A stretch of 52,424 nucleotides of DNA from positions 1 through 52,424 of the IMG/VR virus record IMGVR_UViG_3300013009_000061; one strand, given 5' to 3'. Below are positions 5,921 to 12,638 of the stretch, in pieces. The translations under genes were made by a program, and so were the position numbers. The notes under the pieces were generated by a model. It did not search any database, was not told the origin of the DNA, and saw nothing but the letters and a program-made list of their open reading frames with translations. Within the stretch, counting starts at the first letter, position 1. Each line of letters opens with the position of its first letter. The DNA comes from a virus (lineage: Duplodnaviria > Caudoviricetes).

Positions 5921-7104
5921 TGGTCGCGACACACGCAGAACGCCCTCACGCACTGCTCAGCGCGTCTGCAGCACATCGATGGCTGGCCTGCCCGCCGAGT
6001 GCCCGGCTGTGTGAACAATTCCCGGACACGACGAGCGAGTATGCGGCTGAGGGGACTTTAGCGCATGAGCTCGCCGAGCTCAAGCTACGCAAAGCGTTGA
6101 AACTCGGCAATCTCAACGCGCGGGAATTCAACAAGCGCCGCAAAGAAATTGAGTCGCATCCGCTCTACAGTGCTGAAATGGACACTTACACGGATAGCTA
6201 TGTCGACTACGTCCTTGGTATCGTGCACAGCTATCGCGTGCCACCTTACGTGACGGTCGAAAAGCAGATTGACTACAGCGCCTACGCGCCTGAGGGTTTT
6301 GGCACCGGCGATTGCATCGTGATCGGCGGCGAAACCTTACACATCATCGACCTGAAGTACGGGAAAGGCGTGCGAGTGAGCGGAGAAGGCAACCCACAAA
6401 TGCGTCTCTACGCGCTCGGCGCCTTGCAGGAGTACGGGTTCCTGTACCCGATTACGGAAATCCACACGGCCATTGTGCAACCGCGCCTCGAGAGCATCAG
6501 CGAAGAGACGATCTCTGTCGACGAACTGCTTGCCTGGGGCGAATCTATCAAGCCTATCGCCGAGATGGCGTATCGAGGCGAGGGTGAGTTCAACGCGGGG
6601 GAGCACTGTCGCTTCTGTCGTGCGAAGTCCGTCTGCCGCGCTCGGTCTGAACAGTACCTGGCGCTCGAAGCGTTCGGACAAGCCAAGCCTCCGCTCATCA
6701 CGGACAGCGAGGTCGGGGAAATTCTGCGTCGAGCCAAGGCATTAGCAGAGTGGGTAACGGACCTCGAGGAATACGCACTGCAACAATGTTTGGCTGGCAA
6801 CCAGATCCCCGGCTGGAAAGCTGTCGAAGGTCGCGGTTCGCGGCAATACGTCGACTTGGATGCCGCGTTCAAAGCGCTCATCGACGCCGGCATCGATGAA
6901 GCGGTGCTCTACGAACGCAAGCCACTCACTGTCGCGCAACTCGAAAAGGTACTCGGCAAAGCGCAGTATCGACAGCTACTCGAAGAACCGGGACTCGTGA
7001 GGAAGGAACCCGGCAAACCGACACTCGTGCCTGAATCGGACAAGCGTCCCGCGATCACCGCGAAAATTACGGCCCAAGAAGCCTTTGGAGGAGACGAACG
7101 ATGA
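5920..7104 (+). CDS. DUF2800 PD-(D/E)xK (Cas4-like) exonuclease
   Basis: HALLSASAAHRWLACPPS, GTGDC...IIDLKYGKG, NPQMRLYALG, HCRFCRAKSVC. Confidence 0.9.
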   Translation: MVATHAERPHALLSASAAHRWLACPPSARLCEQFPDTTSEYAAEGTLAHELAELKLRKALKLGNLNAREFNKRRKEIESHPLYSAEMDTYTDSYVDYVLGIVHSYRVPPYVTVEKQIDYSAYAPEGFGTGDCIVIGGETLHIIDLKYGKGVRVSGEGNPQMRLYALGALQEYGFLYPITEIHTAIVQPRLESISEETISVDELLAWGESIKPIAEMAYRGEGEFNAGEHCRFCRAKSVCRARSEQYLALEAFGQAKPPLITDSEVGEILRRAKALAEWVTDLEEYALQQCLAGNQIPGWKAVEGRGSRQYVDLDAAFKALIDAGIDEAVLYERKPLTVAQLEKVLGKAQYRQLLEEPGLVRKEPGKPTLVPESDKRPAITAKITAQEAFGGDER

Positions 7105-7739
7105 CGAAACCGACGACCGTGACGACCGGACAAGTGCGTCTGAGCTACGTGCATTTGACGAAACCGTATGCCGCGAATCCCGGGCAAGAGCCGAAGTACA
7201 GCGTGACGCTTCTCATCCCGAAATCCGACGTGCAAACGAAGCAACGTATCGATGCGGCTATCGAAGCGGCCATCCAAGAAGGCGTCCTGTCGAAGTGGGG
7301 TGGCGTGCGACCCCCGGTACTCAAGATCCCCGTCCACGACGGAGACGGCGTGCGCCCGAACGGCGAACCATTTGGACCTGAATGTAAGGGTCACTGGGTA
7401 GTCACTGCCTCCAGCAAACAGCCGGTCGAAGTGGTCGACCTCAATCTGAGTCCGATACTCGACCAAACGCAAATCTACAGCGGCATGTACGGGCGCGTGT
7501 CGATCACCTTCTTCGCTTTCAATACGAACGGCAACCGCGGTATCGGATGTGGCTTGAACGCCGTGCAGAAGGTCGCCGACGGTGAACCACTTGGCGGACG
7601 AATCAGTGCCGCGCAGGCCTTCGGTGATGGTTTCACGCCAGCTACGACTACCACACCAACTGCGCCGCCAACGGCTGCGAAACCTGCCATCGATCCGATT
7701 ACTGGCCAACCGCTGAGCGGAGGCGTGATGGGGTTGTGA
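7101..7739 (+). CDS. DUF2815 single-stranded DNA-binding protein
   Basis: VRLSYVHL, KYSVTLLIPK, DGD, YSGMYGRVS, GNRGIGCGLNAVQKVADGEPLGG. Confidence 0.9.
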   Translation: MTKPTTVTTGQVRLSYVHLTKPYAANPGQEPKYSVTLLIPKSDVQTKQRIDAAIEAAIQEGVLSKWGGVRPPVLKIPVHDGDGVRPNGEPFGPECKGHWVVTASSKQPVEVVDLNLSPILDQTQIYSGMYGRVSITFFAFNTNGNRGIGCGLNAVQKVADGEPLGGRISAAQAFGDGFTPATTTTPTAPPTAAKPAIDPITGQPLSGGVMGL

Positions 7740-7742
7740 GCG

Positions 7743-9029
7743 ATGCGACATTTGAGCGTGGACATCGAGACGTACTCCAACGTCGACATCAAGAAGAGCG
7801 GCCTGTACAAGTACGCGCAAAGCCCTGACTTCGAGATCTTGCTGTTTGCGTACTCGTTCGACGGAGGGCCCGTCGAGGTCGTCGACCTGGCTCAGGGAGA
7901 GCAGCTGCCGGCAGACATTCTGTCGGCGCTGCAAGACCCAGGCGTGATCAAACACGCTTACAACGCGGCCTTTGAGTGGTACTGCATCAATCGGTTCTGG
8001 CCATCTCCGCTCGAGCAGTGGCGCTGCACCATGGTGCACGGTCTGTACTGCGGGTATCCCGCAGGTCTCGCCAACGTCGCCAAAGCGCTCCAGCTCAACG
8101 AGGACAAGCAGAAGATGAGCGTCGGTGCCGCACTAATTCGGACGTTCTGTGTGCCGTGTAAACCCACCAAAGCGAACGGAGGGCGCACACGGACGCTCCC
8201 GCATCACGAGCCCGAAAAGTGGGCGCTCTTCAAGGAGTACTGTCGGCGCGACGTCGAGGTCGAGATGGAGGTTGCGAGGCGTCTGGCAGCCTTCCCGGTG
8301 CCTGAAGAAGAACAGCGACTGTGGGTACTCGATCAGCGCATCAACGCGTACGGCGTGGCCATCGACACGGACCTTGTGGACGGTGCCCTGGCCATCAACG
8401 AGACCGTGACCTCGGAGCTGATGGACGAAGCCGTCCGACTGTCCGGACTGGACAACCCGAACAGCGTGCAACAGCTCACCAAGTGGCTGACCGAGGAGTT
8501 GGGCGAAGAGGTCACGGACCTGCGCAAGGATACGGTGGAGACGCTGCTGCAGTCCATCGACGATGGCGCAGCCAGACGCATGCTCGAAATAAGGCAAGAG
8601 TTATCAAAAGCATCCGTCAAAAAGTACGCCGCCATGCGCGACGCGGTGTGCGCGGATGGGCGGGCGCGAGGGCTGCTCCAGTTCTACGGGGCCAGCCGCA
8701 CAGGGCGATGGTGTCTAGCCGAAGGAACGCCCGTACTTGTGCGAACACAAGAAGGCGAAATCCTGGAAAAGCCCATCGAATCTGTATTGCTTACAGACCG
8801 AGTTTGGGACGGAGAGCAGTGGGTAACTCACGAGGGGGTAGTGTTCAGCGGTGACAGGGACGTGATCACCTGGGACGGTATTACTGCGACCCCTGAACAC
8901 ATCGTGTACATCTCCGACACCGAATCAATGCCACTGGCCGAAGCCAAGAGAAGGGGGTTGCGACTGTGGAGAGGCAATTCACCGTTTACCGCATCATCGG
9001 ACCAACTGGCAAACAGTACATCGGCGTGA
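7743..9029 (+). CDS. DNA polymerase family A, N-terminal half (3'-5' exo/thumb) fused to split-intein N-fragment
   Basis: SVDIETYS exo motif, AYNAAFE, LQFYGASRTGRW followed by intein block A CLAEGTPV (Cys at 8712) and block B ITATPEH. Confidence 0.9.
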   Translation: MRHLSVDIETYSNVDIKKSGLYKYAQSPDFEILLFAYSFDGGPVEVVDLAQGEQLPADILSALQDPGVIKHAYNAAFEWYCINRFWPSPLEQWRCTMVHGLYCGYPAGLANVAKALQLNEDKQKMSVGAALIRTFCVPCKPTKANGGRTRTLPHHEPEKWALFKEYCRRDVEVEMEVARRLAAFPVPEEEQRLWVLDQRINAYGVAIDTDLVDGALAINETVTSELMDEAVRLSGLDNPNSVQQLTKWLTEELGEEVTDLRKDTVETLLQSIDDGAARRMLEIRQELSKASVKKYAAMRDAVCADGRARGLLQFYGASRTGRWCLAEGTPVLVRTQEGEILEKPIESVLLTDRVWDGEQWVTHEGVVFSGDRDVITWDGITATPEHIVYISDTESMPLAEAKRRGLRLWRGNSPFTASSDQLANSTSA

Positions 9030-9841
9030 CCAGCATGTCAGTGACAGAACGTTGGCGTCACCACATCAATCACGCCGATTCGGCGCCGATAGACCATCCT
9101 TTTTACTCGGATGTCCGTAAGTACGGCCGAGATGCGTTCATGGTTGAGACGATTCGCTCTGGATTGGGCTTCACCGAAGCCCGTAAGGCGGAACGTGCAC
9201 TCATCGCTGTCACCCCAGAGCACTTGCGTTACAACCTCTCTCCAGGCGGAGCGGAAGACGCGAAATTCGGCGGAATCGTGTTCTGGGAAAGGCTCAATGC
9301 GGATCCGGAAGCCCGACAGATTTTCCTGCAAAAGCTTTCAGAGGTAAAGAAGGCGCGCGATTGGTCAGACTATGAGTCCATGTCTGAGGCTGCGGAATCC
9401 TGGCGCAAGGAACATCCCAAAGAAGCGTACAGGCTCGCGTACCGGGCCATCCGCCTGGCACGCAAAGCTCGACCGCAGCCTGTTCGCAAGGAAGATACAC
9501 GTCCTCTGAAGGAGCGGCTCATGTGGAAGCACAAGCGCTCAGAGATGACGCGCAAGCATGCATTGGCGCAGTGGGCCCGCAGGACCGAAGCCGAACGCGT
9601 CGCAATCGGAGCAAAGATCTCCAAGAAACTGAAGAAACGAATGATGGATAAGGCGATCCTTCCTGATTTCAAGCAGGAAGAATGGCCGTTTGCAAAGGCT
9701 ACGGTTTTACGAAAGATGCGGCAGGGAATGTCGAGAGAAGAAATCATCGCAGACGCTATCAAGGTTGTCAGGCAACGCGGATCCCATTGGCGCGACGTAC
9801 AAGCCAAACTACAGGCCATGCGAAAAGAGGGGCATCTCTGA
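8966..9841 (+). CDS. Free-standing GIY-YIG homing endonuclease
   Basis: TVYRI...KQYIGVT...ERWRHH...AERALI...YNLSPGG; basic C-terminal DNA-binding region; own RBS (AGAAGGGGG) and GTG start. Confidence 0.85.
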   Translation: MERQFTVYRIIGPTGKQYIGVTSMSVTERWRHHINHADSAPIDHPFYSDVRKYGRDAFMVETIRSGLGFTEARKAERALIAVTPEHLRYNLSPGGAEDAKFGGIVFWERLNADPEARQIFLQKLSEVKKARDWSDYESMSEAAESWRKEHPKEAYRLAYRAIRLARKARPQPVRKEDTRPLKERLMWKHKRSEMTRKHALAQWARRTEAERVAIGAKISKKLKKRMMDKAILPDFKQEEWPFAKATVLRKMRQGMSREEIIADAIKVVRQRGSHWRDVQAKLQAMRKEGHL

Positions 9842-10911
9842 TGCGAACGTACGACATCATCAATGCAGGACCGAAGAACAGGTTCATGGCAAACGGCCGG
9901 ATTGTATCAAACTCAGGGCGGCTCATCCAACCCCAAAATCTGCCAAGAAATCACTTGGATTGCATGTCCTTGGCACGAGACCTCGTCAAGGCGCGCAAGC
10001 TTGATGCCATCCGAGTGATCTACGGCAACCTAGCGGACACACTCTCGCAGCTCACGAGGACTGCGCTCATCCCGTCTCCAGGACACCTCTTCGTCGTCGC
10101 CGACTTCTCCGCTATCGAAGCACGCATCACCGCATGGCTAGCGGGCGAAGAGTGGGTGCTCGAAGTCTTTCGGACGCACGGCAAGATTTACGAGGCCACG
10201 GCTGCGCAGATGTTCGGCGTGCCGCTAGAGCGGATTGTCAAAGGCAACCCGGAATACGAGCTGAGGCAGAAGGGCAAGGTCGCGACTCTCGCACTTGGGT
10301 ACGGCGGCGGTTCAGGAGCGCTCATCAACATGGGCGCGTTGAAACAAGGTCTCACAGAGGATGAACTGCCTGAGATCGTACAACGCTGGCGTGCCGCCAA
10401 CCGGCGCATCGTTGGCCTCTGGTACACCGTTGAAAACGCCGCGCTTGAAGTGATGCGCACGGGACAAGCCGTCGGTGTACGAGGGCTCATCTTCGCACGA
10501 GAGGGCGACGGACAGCAGGACTGGCTCACCGTACGGCTACCGAGTGGTCGCAAGCTCTATTACGCGAAACCCGCTATCGAGCTCAACGACCGCGGGAACG
10601 AACAGCTAAGTTACCAGGGCACCACGATGAAAGGCGGCAAACCGGAGAGGACGTCGACGTGGGGCGGGAAGCTCGTCGAGAACTTGGTGCAGTCCATCGC
10701 CCGCGACTGTCTGGCGGTGTCGCTCATGCGACTTGCCGCGGCAGGCTACAAGATCGCGTTTCATGTGCATGACGAAATCGTGCTTGATGTACCGGCTGAA
10801 CAAGCAGACGTCGATGCGGTGACGACCATCATGGGACAACCCATCGACTGGGCGCCAGGGCTACCGCTTAAAGCCGAGGGCTTCGTTTGCGAGTACTACC
10901 GAAAGGATTGA
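9841..10911 (+). CDS. Split-intein C-fragment (24 aa) fused to DNA polymerase family A C-terminal half
   Basis: MRTYDIINAGPKNRFMANGRIVSN/S (blocks F,G) then SGRLIQPQNLPR, motif A ADFSAIEAR, motif B RQKGKVATLALGYG, motif C HVHDE; ATG overlaps endonuclease TGA, GAGGGG RBS. Confidence 0.9.
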   Translation: MRTYDIINAGPKNRFMANGRIVSNSGRLIQPQNLPRNHLDCMSLARDLVKARKLDAIRVIYGNLADTLSQLTRTALIPSPGHLFVVADFSAIEARITAWLAGEEWVLEVFRTHGKIYEATAAQMFGVPLERIVKGNPEYELRQKGKVATLALGYGGGSGALINMGALKQGLTEDELPEIVQRWRAANRRIVGLWYTVENAALEVMRTGQAVGVRGLIFAREGDGQQDWLTVRLPSGRKLYYAKPAIELNDRGNEQLSYQGTTMKGGKPERTSTWGGKLVENLVQSIARDCLAVSLMRLAAAGYKIAFHVHDEIVLDVPAEQADVDAVTTIMGQPIDWAPGLPLKAEGFVCEYYRKD

Positions 10912-11014
10912 GGACCTTGCATGAAACCTGCTTCTACTGCGGCCGCGCGACCGAAGAGCCTCTTAATCGATACGGCGTACACGACTATTGCTGCTACGAA
11001 CAGGAGGACGACAC

Positions 11015-11251
11015 ATGCGAGACACCGCGCTCACAGTGGGCCAGCGAATCATCGCCATGGACTGTCTCGGCATCGGGCCGCGTGCTGGATATCGCTACGT
11101 GGGCGGCACCATCGAATACCTCTCTCCTCGAGGCTGGGCAACCGTAATGCTCGATTTTGGATATCGGGAGTGCTTCTGGCTGGAGGAACTCGAGCCTGTG
11201 GAGGAGGCGGCACCATGGGAGAACTGTGGGAACGTGCTTTACGCGCCTTAA
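11015..11251 (+). CDS. Small hypothetical protein (SH3-like)
   Basis: AGGAGG RBS; LTVGQRI...GTIEYL...YRECFWLEELEPV. Confidence 0.55.
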   Translation: MRDTALTVGQRIIAMDCLGIGPRAGYRYVGGTIEYLSPRGWATVMLDFGYRECFWLEELEPVEEAAPWENCGNVLYAP

Positions 11252-11553
11252 AGGCACGCGTTGATGCCGGCGAACTCGACCCTGAAGACGTCATCACACG
11301 GTTGACCGATACCATCCTGCACCCAGAATCCCCTACATACGACCCGGTCAACCATCCTCGTCACTACGTAACCGGCGGTATCGAGACGATCGACTTCATC
11401 GAGGCAAAGCTCGGCCCGGAACGGTTTGAGGGCTATTGCATTGGCAACGCCATCAAGTATCTCTCACGTTATCAGCACAAGGGCGGCAAGGAAGACCTTC
11501 AAAAGGCCGTTTGGTACCTCAACCGCATCATCGAAAGGAGCCAAGAAGTATGA
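11215..11553 (+). CDS. DUF3310 domain protein
   Basis: DPVNHPRHY..GGIETIDFI...GNAIKYLSRYQHKGGKEDLQKAVWYL. Confidence 0.85.
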   Translation: MGELWERALRALKARVDAGELDPEDVITRLTDTILHPESPTYDPVNHPRHYVTGGIETIDFIEAKLGPERFEGYCIGNAIKYLSRYQHKGGKEDLQKAVWYLNRIIERSQEV

Positions 11554-12638
11554 CGACGACCACTGATCTGACCCTTGAAATCACGAAACCCATTCTCGAC
11601 GCCATGAAAACCGCCGCGCGGTTCGCGCCGAAGAAATACCCCGTACACGCCTATGAATACATCCGTGTCACCGCAAAAGGTGGGGACCTGATCATCGAAG
11701 CCGCAAATAGCGACGCGTACTACCGTCGGACCCTCTTCATGCCGGATGTAACGGTGCCCTCACCGACGGCCGCGGTACTACATCGCGATGTACTCCTGAA
11801 CACCAAGGCACCGACCACCTTGCAATTCGGCGACCGCCCGCGCTTGGGCCCGATGGTGCTTTGCCCTGATATCTTACCTGAGGACTTCCCGTCAGCCCCG
11901 CCGAAGGCGACAAGCGAAGCCGTGAATTGTGGTGCGGCTTACTTTCACGCGCTTGAACGCGCCGCACTTTCCGCATCGAAGTCAAAGGTTCGCCCAGTGC
12001 TGCAAGGCATCTGCCATCGCGGAAATGCAATGTTTGCCTCAGACGGCCTGTGCGCGTATTGGGCGAAAACAGATCAGTCCTGGCCGCAAGATCTCGTTTT
12101 ACCTGCCTCGTACGCGGCGACACTCGGGAAACTATTCGCGCGGTCAGGAGCATACATGGCCTGGAACGACTCACACATCTGGTATTGGGGCAACGGGCAT
12201 CAGATCGCAATTCGGCCTCTTGTACGCCCTGTGGATGGGCGACATTATCCCGATGTCGAAGGGGTCTTTCCACGATCAACACCGATTGCGAGCGGCACGC
12301 TTGATCGCAAAGCGTGGATGCAGGCACTCGATTCTGTGATCTCGCTCTATAAGTCGGTCAAACGCCGTGATCTCGAATTCCGGATGACCATCGAGGGATT
12401 CATCGGAAAAGCCGTCATCTGTGCACGTGTGGAGGGACATGAACTGCAACAGGAAGTACCCTGTCAAGCCAGCGTGTCCTTCTGGCTACGGATCAACGCG
12501 CAGTTGCTCCATCAGGCGCTACAACAGTTGGATGACAGTAACGAAGTCGAATTCGAATTTTACGGTTCGGAGACGCCGTTTCTACTCTCGCAACGTAACG
12601 GACAACGCAAAGCCTTGATCGCGGTCATGACCAAGTGA
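11550..12638 (+). CDS. DNA polymerase III beta-clamp-like protein
   Basis: ~362 aa; SKSKVRPVLQGI, ASDG, GRHYPDVEGVFP, INAQLLHQAL...PFLL...ALIAVM resemble DnaN repeats. Confidence 0.7.
   Translation: MTTTTDLTLEITKPILDAMKTAARFAPKKYPVHAYEYIRVTAKGGDLIIEAANSDAYYRRTLFMPDVTVPSPTAAVLHRDVLLNTKAPTTLQFGDRPRLGPMVLCPDILPEDFPSAPPKATSEAVNCGAAYFHALERAALSASKSKVRPVLQGICHRGNAMFASDGLCAYWAKTDQSWPQDLVLPASYAATLGKLFARSGAYMAWNDSHIWYWGNGHQIAIRPLVRPVDGRHYPDVEGVFPRSTPIASGTLDRKAWMQALDSVISLYKSVKRRDLEFRMTIEGFIGKAVICARVEGHELQQEVPCQASVSFWLRINAQLLHQALQQLDDSNEVEFEFYGSETPFLLSQRNGQRKALIAVMTK

What the first reader, a model, noticed from the sequence alone, without database searches (positions are those of the whole stretch)
7743..10911. 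Fractured phage DNA polymerase A: natural split intein with a free-standing GIY-YIG endonuclease between the halves
Seen: the polymerase is encoded by two ORFs in different frames. The first ends in a 105-aa intein N-fragment (GRW|CLAEGTPV...TATPEH...). The second starts at its own RBS/ATG (9841) with a 24-aa intein C-fragment (MRTYDIINAGPKNRFMANGRIVSN|SGR). A GIY-YIG gene in the third frame, with its own RBS, overlaps the first ORF and is TGATG-coupled to the second. Removing the intein parts restores the conserved SRTGRW-SGRLIQPQNLPR segment and a ~655-aa (323+332) polymerase. Known: 'fractured genes' with split inteins and an intervening endonuclease occur in phage replication genes. Inference: the polymerase is assembled by protein trans-splicing. 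The very short C-intein with Ser instead of the usual penultimate His makes it a candidate new orthogonal split-intein tool.
Basis: partly seen in the sequence, partly recalled or inferred. Interest (0 to 1): 0.9.

Follow-up and report, generated by a model that had tools for sequence, protein, structure and literature searches.

The report
Phage polymerase gene split by intein
A prophage's DNA polymerase gene is broken into two genes by a split intein with a homing-endonuclease gene lodged between the halves; this arrangement is already known from other phage genes, but here the C-terminal intein piece is unusually short (24 residues) and is shared by more than a hundred related sequences.

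Summary
A family A DNA polymerase is encoded by two ORFs in different frames (7743-9029 and 9841-10911). A 291-codon GIY-YIG endonuclease ORF (8966-9841) lies between them in the third frame. Removing 8712-9912 restores a 655-aa polymerase: 78 of 80 related IMG/VR loci have the two exteins directly abutting. The insert is a class-1-type intein. A cis mini-intein relative at the same site folds as a HINT domain whose top PDB matches are all inteins. Cys1, the block B Thr/His, terminal Asn and +1 Ser are invariant or nearly so. The split is not an assembly error. Contigs from other runs show no indels, 114 of 120 listed N-halves stop 88-110 residues after Cys1, and 94 of 120 listed C-halves begin with the same 24-residue C-intein. 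Some relatives carry unrelated genes between the halves, one on the opposite strand. This is the 'fractured gene' architecture of Dassa et al. 2009, which already included GIY-YIG endonucleases and the endonuclease/C-intein overlap. It is therefore a new member of a known kind, in a host gene (PolA) absent from the passages I read. Trans-splicing is inferred, not shown. The compact size (88-94 + 24 residues, penultimate Ser) is the most interesting point.

The parts
7743..8711 (+). N-extein: PolA residues 1-323 (3'-5' exonuclease part and start of the polymerase domain), ending ...SRTGRW
   Evidence: phrog_17 DNA polymerase, E 1.6e-56, residues 1-323 to profile 670-975. 86% identical to the uninterrupted allele L006.
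8712..9029 (+). N-intein, 105 codons plus stop. The conserved core runs from Cys1 to ...LWRG (8712-8975, 88 aa). The 17-codon tail 8976-9026 is read-through into the 5' end of the endonuclease gene.
   Evidence: C324 and H386 are invariant and T383 is >=90% in 53 aligned N-halves. Relatives' N-inteins end 88-110 aa after Cys1 in 114 of 120. The HINT fold of the same-site cis relative L087 was confirmed.
8950..8957 (+). Shine-Dalgarno-like GAAGGGGG, 8 nt upstream of GTG 8966
   Evidence: Read from the sequence.
8966..9841 (+). Free-standing GIY-YIG homing-endonuclease gene (291 aa). Catalytic domain aa 5-95 (8978-9250), a helical middle part, and a C-terminal module aa 208-285 (9587-9820) that is shared with HNH ORFs of related inteins.
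   Evidence: phrog_314 and phrog_5123 homing endonuclease, E 1.5e-12 and 2.4e-6. 56 homologues, many carrying PF01541. Y8, Y18, G20, R29, H33, E76 and N90 are invariant in 40 sequences. The model's top PDB hits are the I-TevI catalytic domain, TMt 0.79.
9825..9832 (+). Shine-Dalgarno-like AAGAGGGG, 8 nt upstream of ATG 9841
   Evidence: Read from the sequence.
9841..9912 (+). C-intein, 24 codons (blocks F and G), ending ...IVSN
   Evidence: 94 of 120 listed C-halves start with a 24-aa C-intein of this sequence type. T3, D5, I6, N8, A9, G10, R14, V22, S23 and N24 are invariant in 50 sequences. Residues 1-12 and 14-26 lie in the predicted interface.
9913..10911 (+). C-extein: PolA residues 324-655 starting SGRLIQPQNLPR, with motifs A, B and C
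   Evidence: phrog_10285, E 8.3e-96; Pfam DNA_pol_A, E 2.5e-17. 96% identical to L006. D88, K146, H310, D311 and E312 are conserved.
8712..9912 (+). The whole insert (1201 nt) that is absent from intein-less alleles; its G+C is lower than the flanks
   Evidence: Gap 0 in 78 of 80 loci. G+C is 0.50-0.59 inside against 0.60-0.63 in the flanking polymerase sequence.

Best explanation
The locus is a genuine 'fractured' phage family A DNA polymerase gene. A class-1-type intein sits between Trp323 and Ser324 of the polymerase and is split at the usual endonuclease-insertion loop. A free-standing GIY-YIG homing-endonuclease gene occupies the split. Three proteins are made, probably from one transcript: PolA(1-323) joined to IntN (105 aa), the endonuclease, and IntC (24 aa) joined to PolA(324-655). 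Inferred steps: IntN and IntC associate into a HINT domain. Cys1 starts an N-S acyl shift, Ser+1 attacks, the terminal Asn24 cyclises, and the two exteins are ligated into a 655-aa polymerase. The endonuclease presumably cuts intein-less or endonuclease-less alleles in co-infecting relatives and so spreads the cassette. Shown here: the anatomy, the exact junction, the HINT fold of a same-site cis relative, conservation of the catalytic residues, and recurrence of the split in many independent sequences. Inferred: association, splicing, endonuclease activity and its target.
For: (1) The junction is exact and the uninterrupted allele is common: the phrog_17 profile runs 975/976 across the junction, and 78 of 80 loci have gap 0.
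(2) It is an intein. The cis mini-intein at the same site in L087 (139 aa; 65% identical to the window's N part over residues 1-89 and 92% to its C part) was modelled at pLDDT 83.6 and pTM 0.78. Its best Foldseek PDB matches are all inteins: gp41-1, Npu DnaE, Ssp DnaB and Mtu RecA, probability 1.00, TM 0.50-0.67.
(3) Catalytic residues are conserved. C324 and H386 are invariant and T383 is >=90% in 53 N-halves. D5, S23, N24 and S25 are invariant in 50 C-halves.
(4) The split is real. No indels appear in contigs of runs X2-X4. 114 of 120 listed N-halves end 88-110 aa after Cys1. 94 of 120 listed C-halves have a 24-aa IntC and 25 have 25-32 aa. All 7 same-site loci from species-representative genomes are split. 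In L086 a stop lies 28 codons before the splice site.
(5) Relatives carry unrelated cargo between the halves: a DUF3800 gene on the opposite strand in L097 (E 1.2e-12) and a KilAC antirepressor in L100 (E 8e-30). This excludes read-through translation in those loci.
(6) The intein is more conserved than its host gene. The N-intein averages 66% identity against 48% for the extein (52 of 52 sequences). The C-intein averages 91% against 46% (49 of 49). This fits horizontal spread and selection on the intein.
(7) Complex prediction of IntN (residues 312-428) with IntC plus 16 extein residues scored ipSAE 0.62, with the best of 3 controls at 0.00. That mark was reached by 58 of 80 solved complexes and 2 of 110 mismatched pairs. 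The runs agree in at least 87% of contacts and the partner's pLDDT is 61. Split-intein complexes are solved, so this pass may reflect likeness only.
(8) The endonuclease is intact: GIY-YIG catalytic residues are invariant and the fold is I-TevI-like.
(9) Polymerase motifs are intact, and the record is a provirus rated 100% complete.
Against: There is no experimental or expression evidence. No run listed as RNA holds the stretch. Pfam finds no intein or Hint domain in the N-half at E <= 0.1. phmmer against PDB sequences finds nothing for the N-intein (best E 1.6). The usual penultimate His is replaced by Ser. IntC lacks the first beta-strand that opens the IntC of gp41-1 (described in passages of bioRxiv 10.1101/546465), so efficient association is not guaranteed. 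The complex score may come from the model's memory of solved split inteins. The endonuclease's target site is unknown. Pfam's GIY-YIG model does not reach E <= 0.1 on the window's own copy.
Confidence: 0.85

Rival explanations
1. The intein halves only hold the two polymerase fragments together. The enzyme would work as a non-covalent two-chain polymerase without splicing.
For: Gene fragmentation by endonucleases without inteins yields functional two-chain enzymes, such as Aeh1 NrdA and phage gp43, as recounted in Dassa et al. (passages). The predicted interface shows association only.
Against: Cys1, the block B His, block F Asp, terminal Asn and +1 Ser are invariant across 50-53 diverged sequences. 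Pure dimerisation would not require this. The break falls inside the conserved ...TGRW|SGR...QNLPR segment, which is contiguous in 78 of 80 relatives.
Confidence: 0.05
2. The polymerase gene is dead. The insertion broke the gene in a decaying prophage and the pieces are relics.
For: The record is a provirus. No expression data exist.
Against: All three ORFs are intact, each with a ribosome-binding site. Exonuclease and polymerase motifs are conserved. The same split is kept in more than 100 clusters with the intein more conserved than the exteins. Completeness is rated 100%.
Confidence: 0.05
3. Sequencing or assembly frameshifts hide a single cis intein with a nested in-frame GIY-YIG domain.
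For: Some relatives (P0033, P0080, P0098, P0109) do have IntN fused in frame to the GIY-YIG domain. L098 has overlapping halves with nothing between them.
Against: Contigs from runs of other samples match with 0 gaps across 8928-9078 and 9591-10000. Two independent frameshifts would be needed. Even the in-frame fusions stop before IntC (P0033 ends after the endonuclease). Each ORF has its own start and ribosome-binding site. All contigs laid are assemblies, not raw reads, so rare variants could be missed.
Confidence: 0.02
4. The C-half starts at ATG 9682, not 9841. That would give a 77-aa C-intein whose first 53 residues are the alternate-frame reading of the endonuclease 3' end.
For: The frame is open from 9682. 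In related cis inteins at the motif B site, such alternate-frame sequence is translated as the intein linker.
Against: 119 of 120 listed C-halves start 0-8 residues before the conserved RTYDI (these starts are gene-caller choices). In L086 a stop codon lies 28 codons before the splice site. A good Shine-Dalgarno sequence and TGATG coupling sit at 9841. The cis relatives L087 and P0003 have only a short unconserved linker before the same residues.
Confidence: 0.03

Closest known systems
Fractured genes with split inteins and a free-standing endonuclease gene (Dassa et al. 2009, PMC2677866; gp41-1, gp41-8, NrdJ-1, IMPDH-1, NrdA-2)
   Same: A phage replication gene sits in two adjacent same-strand ORFs. 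Each half ends or begins with an intein half. A free-standing GIY-YIG (or Vsr-like) endonuclease gene lies between them. The 3' end of the endonuclease overlaps the start of the C-intein gene (6-69 bp in 15 of their loci; passages read).
   Different: The host gene is a family A DNA polymerase. The passages I read list gp41, IMPDH, DnaE, NrdA, NrdJ, ligase and terminase, and 'PolA' occurs 0 times in the text. The overlap here is 1 nt (TGATG). IntC is 24 aa. Their supplements were not read.
gp41-1 split intein
   Same: It is naturally split, phage-derived and small. It has Cys1 and Ser+1, an IntN of 88 residues, and the HINT fold. It is the top Foldseek match of the same-site cis relative.
   Different: [quoted passage not shown] Here IntC has 24 residues and starts at the block F strand. 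The penultimate residue is Ser. Sequence identity to solved inteins is 14-25%.
Cyanobacterial DnaE split intein (Npu/Ssp)
   Same: A natural split intein in a replicative polymerase, found in one large family that is split at one insertion point. Novikova et al. [quoted passage not shown]
   Different: In DnaE the halves are at distant loci with no endonuclease between them. The fragment sizes I recall (about 102 + 36) come from memory, not from a call. The PolA family here keeps the halves adjacent with variable cargo.
Cis inteins of phage PolA (APSE-1 P45, Streptococcus Javan phages, Sodalis phage SO-1, Ruminococcus phages)
   Same: They belong to the same intein sequence family: 33-56% identity to the N-intein under annotated DNA polymerase genes, and the C part is 50-56% identical.
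   Different: For the three loci inspected (Javan113, SO-1 and Ruminococcus phage NatCom_29429), the intein is inserted elsewhere. In Javan113 and the Ruminococcus phage it sits at motif B (...KGKxAELA|C...HN|CGYGG). These inteins are contiguous, use Cys+1, and keep the penultimate His.
I-TevI-type GIY-YIG homing endonucleases
   Same: There is an N-terminal ~95-aa GIY-YIG catalytic domain with conserved Tyr, Tyr, Arg, His, Glu and Asn. The structural match to 1mk0 has TMt 0.79 and rmsd 2.3 A. It is followed by a separate C-terminal region.
   Different: The enzyme sits between intein halves rather than in or beside a group I intron. The helical C-terminal two thirds have no PDB match. The last ~80 aa are shared with HNH ORFs of related inteins. 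No cleavage data exist.
Inteins with out-of-frame homing endonuclease ORFs (Gosselin et al. 2025 preprint, 10.1101/2025.01.02.630785)
   Same: Relatives of this intein (L034, Javan113, L101 and others) are contiguous inteins that carry an endonuclease ORF in another frame, as that preprint describes for actinophages (passages).
   Different: In the window the intein frame is broken, so the intein is split. The nested ORFs in the relatives look HNH-type by motif, and their hosts are Firmicutes-type phages.

Membership tests
Intein (class 1, HINT fold) | HINT (Hedgehog/intein) fold | tested here: met
   The AF2 model of the same-site cis relative L087 has pLDDT 83.6. Its top Foldseek PDB matches are all inteins, probability 1.00. 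The window's two pieces are predicted to assemble with ipSAE 0.62 against a best control of 0.00. The test was on a relative plus a complex model, not on a solved structure.
Intein (class 1, HINT fold) | N-terminal nucleophile (Cys/Ser) at position 1 and block B Thr-x-x-His | tested here: met
   C324 and H386 are invariant and T383 is >=90% in 53 aligned N-halves.
Intein (class 1, HINT fold) | C-terminal Asn followed by Cys/Ser/Thr at +1; block F Asp | tested here: met
   D5, N24 and S25 are invariant in 50 aligned C-halves.
Intein (class 1, HINT fold) | Penultimate His in block G | tested here: not met
   Ser23 is invariant in 50 of 50. From memory, not from a call: inteins without this His are known to splice, so this is not an excluding feature.
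Intein (class 1, HINT fold) | Recognised by curated sequence models | tested here: not met
   No Hint or intein Pfam family at E <= 0.1 on the N-half. No PDB intein by phmmer.
Intein (class 1, HINT fold) | In-frame insertion in a conserved site of a host protein that also exists without it | tested here: met
   78 of 80 relatives are uninterrupted at exactly this point. The profile is contiguous at 975/976.
Intein (class 1, HINT fold) | Protein splicing activity | not testable with these tools
   Needs co-expression and mass spectrometry.
Fractured gene (Dassa et al. 2009) | Host gene in two adjacent same-strand ORFs, each carrying one half of a split intein | tested here: met
   The split recurs in 114 of 120 N-halves and 119 of 120 C-halves.
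Fractured gene (Dassa et al. 2009) | Free-standing endonuclease gene between the intein halves, with its 3' end overlapping the C-intein start | tested here: met
   ORF 8966-9841 with its own ribosome-binding site; TGATG at 9839-9843. The same protein family lies on the same longest contigs as N- and C-halves in NCBI records: contig length 85,994 for P0034/P0246/P0164 and 2,482,259 for P0016/P0245. Adjacency in those records was not inspected.
GIY-YIG nuclease superfamily | GIY and YIG motifs with conserved Arg, Glu and Asn | tested here: met
   Y8, Y18, G20, R29, H33, E76 and N90 are invariant in 40 sequences. The correspondence to I-TevI residue numbers is recalled from memory.
GIY-YIG nuclease superfamily | Match to Pfam PF01541 | tested here: inconclusive
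   The window's own copy has no hit at E <= 0.1. P0109, 43% identical over 222 aa (E 5e-55), scores 26.6 bits against a cut-off of 22.6. Many of the 56 homologues carry PF01541.
GIY-YIG nuclease superfamily | GIY-YIG alpha/beta fold | tested here: met
   The model has pLDDT 87.4. The three best PDB matches are the I-TevI catalytic domain: probability 1.00, TMt 0.73-0.79, but E only 9e-3 to 4e-2.

The most novel reading that the evidence does not exclude
The window belongs to a large, apparently undescribed family of natural split inteins at one PolA site. This would be the most compact natural intein known: an IntN core of 88-94 residues plus a 24-residue IntC, about 112-118 in all, against 125 for gp41-1. 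It lacks the first IntC strand that other split inteins use as a 'zipper', has an invariant penultimate Ser, and uses Cys1/Ser+1. The IntC is almost invariant across polymerases that are only ~46% identical, and the split tolerates arbitrary cargo genes. If it trans-splices efficiently, nature has already produced a short IntC of synthetic-peptide length. This copy is held by runs labelled hot-springs metagenome, so it may be heat-tolerant.
Probability: 0.45. Interest if true: 0.65.

Novelty: new member of a known kind. Interest (0 to 1): 0.5.

Why it matters
For phage biology, this adds the family A DNA polymerase to the genes known to be fractured by a split intein and a homing endonuclease. 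One insertion site also shows every stage of the cycle side by side:
- empty allele
- cis mini-intein
- IntN fused in frame to the endonuclease
- free-standing endonuclease
- endonuclease remnant
- foreign cargo
- bare split

This makes the gene-breaking model of Dassa et al. directly testable with natural alleles.

For protein engineering, a naturally evolved and extremely conserved 24-residue C-intein with Ser at +1 would be attractive for semisynthesis and as a partner orthogonal to DnaE- and gp41-type inteins. Engineered inteins with shorter C-fragments already exist (abstract of PMC2664965, search listing), which limits the practical novelty.

For annotation, the halves are currently named only 'DNA polymerase', 'hypothetical protein' and 'GIY-YIG nuclease family protein' in public records.

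Tried and rejected
- Pfam on the three ORFs gave no intein or GIY-YIG hit at E <= 0.1.
- phmmer against PDB sequences gave nothing usable for the N-intein (best E 1.6) and nothing for the endonuclease.
- Rfam at E <= 1 on 7600-11000 gave 0 matches. There is therefore no sign of a group I or II intron, and the RNA-splicing rival was dropped.
- A scan of IMG/VR with the endonuclease protein found no relative (3 pattern matches, none confirmed). Relatives were found later by protein search.
- The promoter and terminator scan of 7000-11600 found no more than the shuffles give, and none on the + strand inside the locus. This says nothing either way.
- tblastn of the pieces against the whole window found no second copy. 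No tRNA gene is present in the window.
- No RNA holder was listed among the sequencing runs, so there is no evidence on expression.
- Parts of 8600-10000 are not covered by X2-X4 contigs; that absence is not evidence.
- I looked for a co-conversion donor. No intein-bearing N-half is closer than 64% to the window in the divergent tract aa 220-323, so the donor is unsampled and the idea stays a hint.
- Literature searches: 'split intein' + 'family A DNA polymerase' gave 0 papers. 'split intein' + 'PolA' + 'phage' gave 85 papers; of the 15 listed, the only relevant one concerns a split PolB intein in phage MIJ3. A five-term search and a 'find' in Novikova et al. found no split PolA intein. These searches cover only the held library. 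Supplements, including those of Dassa et al., were not read and could list a PolA locus.


Full report
**What is there.** The window is a 52,424-base provirus record rated 100% complete. The finding lies in a phage replication module. In order, this module holds an exonuclease (phrog_69, E 6e-132), a Gp2.5-like ssDNA-binding protein (phrog_112, E 6e-66), the polymerase region, a protein whose C-terminal part matches PHROG 'nucleotide kinase' families, and a processivity factor (phrog_947, E 4e-21).

- 7743..9029, 428 aa.
- 8966..9841, 291 aa, GTG start.
- An ORF open from 9682 to 10911 whose ATG at 9841 overlaps the preceding stop as TGATG.

The three ORFs use three different frames. Shine-Dalgarno-like runs lie 8 nt upstream of GTG 8966 and of ATG 9841.

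**The junction is exact.** The PHROG DNA-polymerase profile phrog_17 matches N-half residues 1-323 at profile positions 670-975. It matches C-half residues 25-351 at positions 976-1228. I cut the proteins at those points and ran tblastn against the 80 best IMG/VR relatives of the N-half.
- 78 loci have the two exteins directly abutting.
- L034 is also continuous at this site.
- L059 shows a 10-nt offset that I left unexplored.

The closest relative, L006, lacks the insert and is 86% (N-extein) and 96% (C-extein) identical. Paenibacillus phage Pd_22F has an uninterrupted 655-aa polymerase next to the same neighbouring genes. The insert (8712-9912, 1201 nt) has lower G+C than its flanks.

**The insert is an intein.** Curated sequence models do not see it, but relatives do.
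- tblastn of the 105-aa N-part against GenBank phages hits 151 records. The listed hits lie mostly under annotated DNA polymerase genes, including Streptococcus Javan phages, Ruminococcus phages, APSE phages and Salmonella phages.
- Of the three of these loci that I inspected, the inteins in Javan113 and the Ruminococcus phage are contiguous and sit at polymerase motif B. SO-1 carries its insert at a different place from the window's site.
- At the window's own site, IMG/VR locus L087 carries a contiguous 139-aa mini-intein. Its N part is 65% identical and its last 24 residues are 92% identical to the window's.
- Protein P0003 carries another contiguous mini-intein at the same site.
- In both cis forms the stretch between ...WRG and ...RTYDI is a short unconserved linker.

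An AlphaFold2 model of the L087 intein used a 22-row alignment and reached pLDDT 83.6 and pTM 0.78, with low confidence only in that linker. Foldseek against the PDB returns inteins as all the best matches: gp41-1, Npu DnaE, Ssp DnaB and Mtu RecA, probability 1.00, TM 0.50-0.67, 14-25% identity.

In alignments of 53 N-halves and 50 C-halves, the following hold:
- Cys1 and the block B His are invariant.
- The block B Thr is at least 90% conserved.
- The block F Asp, the terminal Asn and Ser+1 are invariant.
- The penultimate Ser is also invariant.

**The split is biological, not an artefact.** Contigs of four runs laid on 8600-10000 show no indels. X4 bridges 8928-9078 and X2 bridges 9591-10000. 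X1 covers everything but may be the source. These are assemblies, so rare variants cannot be excluded.

More telling is the recurrence in other sequences:
- A database search with N-half residues 316-428 returned 140 proteins at E <= 0.001 out of 267 candidates. Of the 120 listed, 114 end 88-110 residues after Cys1. One ends at 124, four continue in frame into a GIY-YIG domain, and one is the cis form.
- A search with the first 45 residues of the C-half returned 141 proteins out of 143 candidates. Of the 120 listed, 94 have a 24-residue C-intein, 25 have 25-32 residues, and one could not be classified. These starts are gene-caller choices.
- All 7 same-site loci from species-representative genomes are split. 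They come from Clostridia MAGs, Synergistales and Fretibacterium.
- An all-against-all HMMER search with the N-intein over 1.84 billion cluster representatives gave 1858 proteins at E <= 0.001 and 506 at E <= 1e-10. By my count of the printed table, the match ends within 25 residues of the protein's end in 31 of the best 50 rows.

**What lies between the halves varies**.
- A GIY-YIG gene: the window, L095 and L096.
- A GIY-YIG remnant of 81 codons (L094), and a partial locus with a GIY-YIG start (L099).
- A 115-aa ORF with no Pfam match: L086.
- A DUF3800 gene on the opposite strand: L097, E 1.2e-12.
- A KilAC antirepressor gene: L100, E 8e-30.
- Nothing, with overlapping halves: L098.

A gene on the other strand between the halves rules out any read-through model for that locus. 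In L086 a stop codon lies 28 codons before the splice site, which caps the C-intein length independently of gene callers.

**Selection and mobility.** Relative to the window, the N-intein core averages 66% identity while the N-extein averages 48%; the intein is higher in 52 of 52 sequences. The C-intein averages 91% against 46% for the C-extein; it is higher in 49 of 49. An intein that is better conserved than its essential host gene fits horizontal spread plus constraint on the intein itself.

Against the intein-less allele L006, the window is 93% identical over residues 1-219 and 96% over the C-extein. It is only 71% identical over residues 220-323, the tract just 5' of the insertion. Other relatives show no such drop. 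This resembles a co-conversion tract, but no donor is sampled, so I count it as a hint.

**Association of the halves.** Complex prediction used N-half residues 312-428 (52-row alignment) and C-half residues 1-40 (50-row alignment). It gave ipSAE 0.62, 0.63 and 0.61, with the best of three controls at 0.00. That mark was reached by 58 of 80 solved complexes and 2 of 110 mismatched pairs. The runs agree in at least 87% of contacts and the partner's pLDDT is 61. All of C-intein residues 1-12 and 14-24 are in the interface, and they contact N-half residues 323-411. Split-intein complexes are in the PDB, so the pass may reflect likeness. It supports binding but does not show it.

**The endonuclease.**
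- PHROG families of homing endonucleases match it (E 1.5e-12; the 'GIY-YIG motif' family at 2.4e-6).
- 56 proteins of similar length are 32-57% identical over most of its length. Many carry PF01541 and several are named 'GIY-YIG nuclease family protein' by NCBI.
- Two of those share their longest-contig length with N- and C-halves found earlier. This suggests the same three-gene arrangement in annotated genomes, but I could not inspect those contigs.
- Y8, Y18, G20, R29, H33, E76 and N90 are invariant in 40 sequences.
- The model (pLDDT 87.4) has the I-TevI catalytic domain as its three best PDB matches: TMt 0.73-0.79, rmsd 2.3-3.3 A, but E only 9e-3 to 4e-2. The helical remainder matches nothing.
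- The gene caller's version of this protein (P0242, 268 aa) starts after the GIY motif. The homologues support the GTG 8966 start.

**Comparison with what is known.** Dassa et al. 2009 (passages read) described 26 metagenomic loci in which a replication or nucleotide-metabolism gene is interrupted by a split intein with a free-standing endonuclease gene between the halves. The endonucleases are of the GIY-YIG or a Vsr-like family. In 15 loci the endonuclease 3' end overlaps the C-intein start by 6-69 bp, which they read as the endonuclease supplying the downstream start codon. The window fits this in every respect.

The hosts they name in the passages I read are gp41, IMPDH, DnaE, NrdA, NrdJ, ligase and terminase, and 'PolA' does not occur in the text. 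I found no paper on a split intein in a family A polymerase. A split PolB intein with an HNH gene is reported for phage MIJ3. These searches cover only the held library and no supplements.

The locus is therefore a new member of a known kind. [quoted passage not shown] Its IntC opens with a strand that zips onto IntN, and shortening it below 125 residues hurt splicing (passages of bioRxiv 10.1101/546465). This family has an IntN core of 88-94 residues and an IntC of 24, with no counterpart of that strand.

**Verdict.** I put 0.85 on a working trans-splicing fractured polymerase. The mechanism beyond the anatomy is inferred. Interest is moderate: the architecture is textbook for the field since 2009, but the family is large, unannotated as such, and unusually compact.

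Noticed in passing
L034:5511-6242; L002 (Streptococcus phage Javan113):2646-3419; also L097, L098, L101, L103, L105 and L088-L093: Related contiguous inteins keep a long open intein frame across an endonuclease ORF that lies in another frame. These sit at polymerase motif B, and in other host genes in L088-L093. The nested ORF in L034 and L002 has an HNH-like motif by eye. The intein-frame translation there looks like unconserved filler. The last ~60-80 aa of these ORFs are 35-42% identical to residues 208-288 of the window's GIY-YIG protein, so one C-terminal module is combined with two different nuclease domains. The out-of-frame arrangement matches what Gosselin et al. (2025 preprint) report for actinophages.
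   Followed up: partly
P0033, P0080, P0098, P0109 (proteins): In these relatives the N-extein, IntN and the GIY-YIG endonuclease form one continuous ORF that stops before IntC. After splicing this would release an IntN-endonuclease fusion. P0109 and P0098 pass Pfam PF01541; P0033 does not.
   Followed up: partly
L097:3820-4512 (- strand); L100:3764-4543; L086:2523-2867: Genes that are not endonucleases sit between the split halves: DUF3800 on the opposite strand, a Bro-N/KilAC antirepressor, and a 115-aa ORF without a Pfam match. The split site seems to act as a landing place for cargo.
   Followed up: partly
window 8400-8711 (N-extein residues 220-323) compared with L006: This tract just 5' of the intein is only 71% identical to the intein-less allele L006, while the rest of the polymerase is 93-96% identical. 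Other relatives show no such local drop. It may be a co-conversion tract from the intein donor; no donor was found.
   Followed up: partly
L086, L095, L097, L098, P0003: The same polymerase carries two inteins of this family: the split (or, in P0003, cis) one at the TGRW|S site and a second contiguous one further along the polymerase.
   Followed up: no
window 8966-9034: The database's gene call for the endonuclease (P0242, 268 aa) starts at an internal Met and cuts off the GIY motif. Homologues of 289 aa align over 98% of the 291-aa version that starts at GTG 8966.
   Followed up: yes
L059:4970-4979: This otherwise uninterrupted polymerase shows a 10-nt offset and a change of frame at the intein insertion point in my tblastn comparison. 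It could be an alignment effect, an error or a footprint.
   Followed up: no
window 10921-11553: Only the last ~75 residues of this 210-aa ORF match PHROG families (the 'nucleotide kinase' type, E 2e-35). The first 130 codons overlap other ORFs and match nothing, so the true start is probably much later.
   Followed up: no
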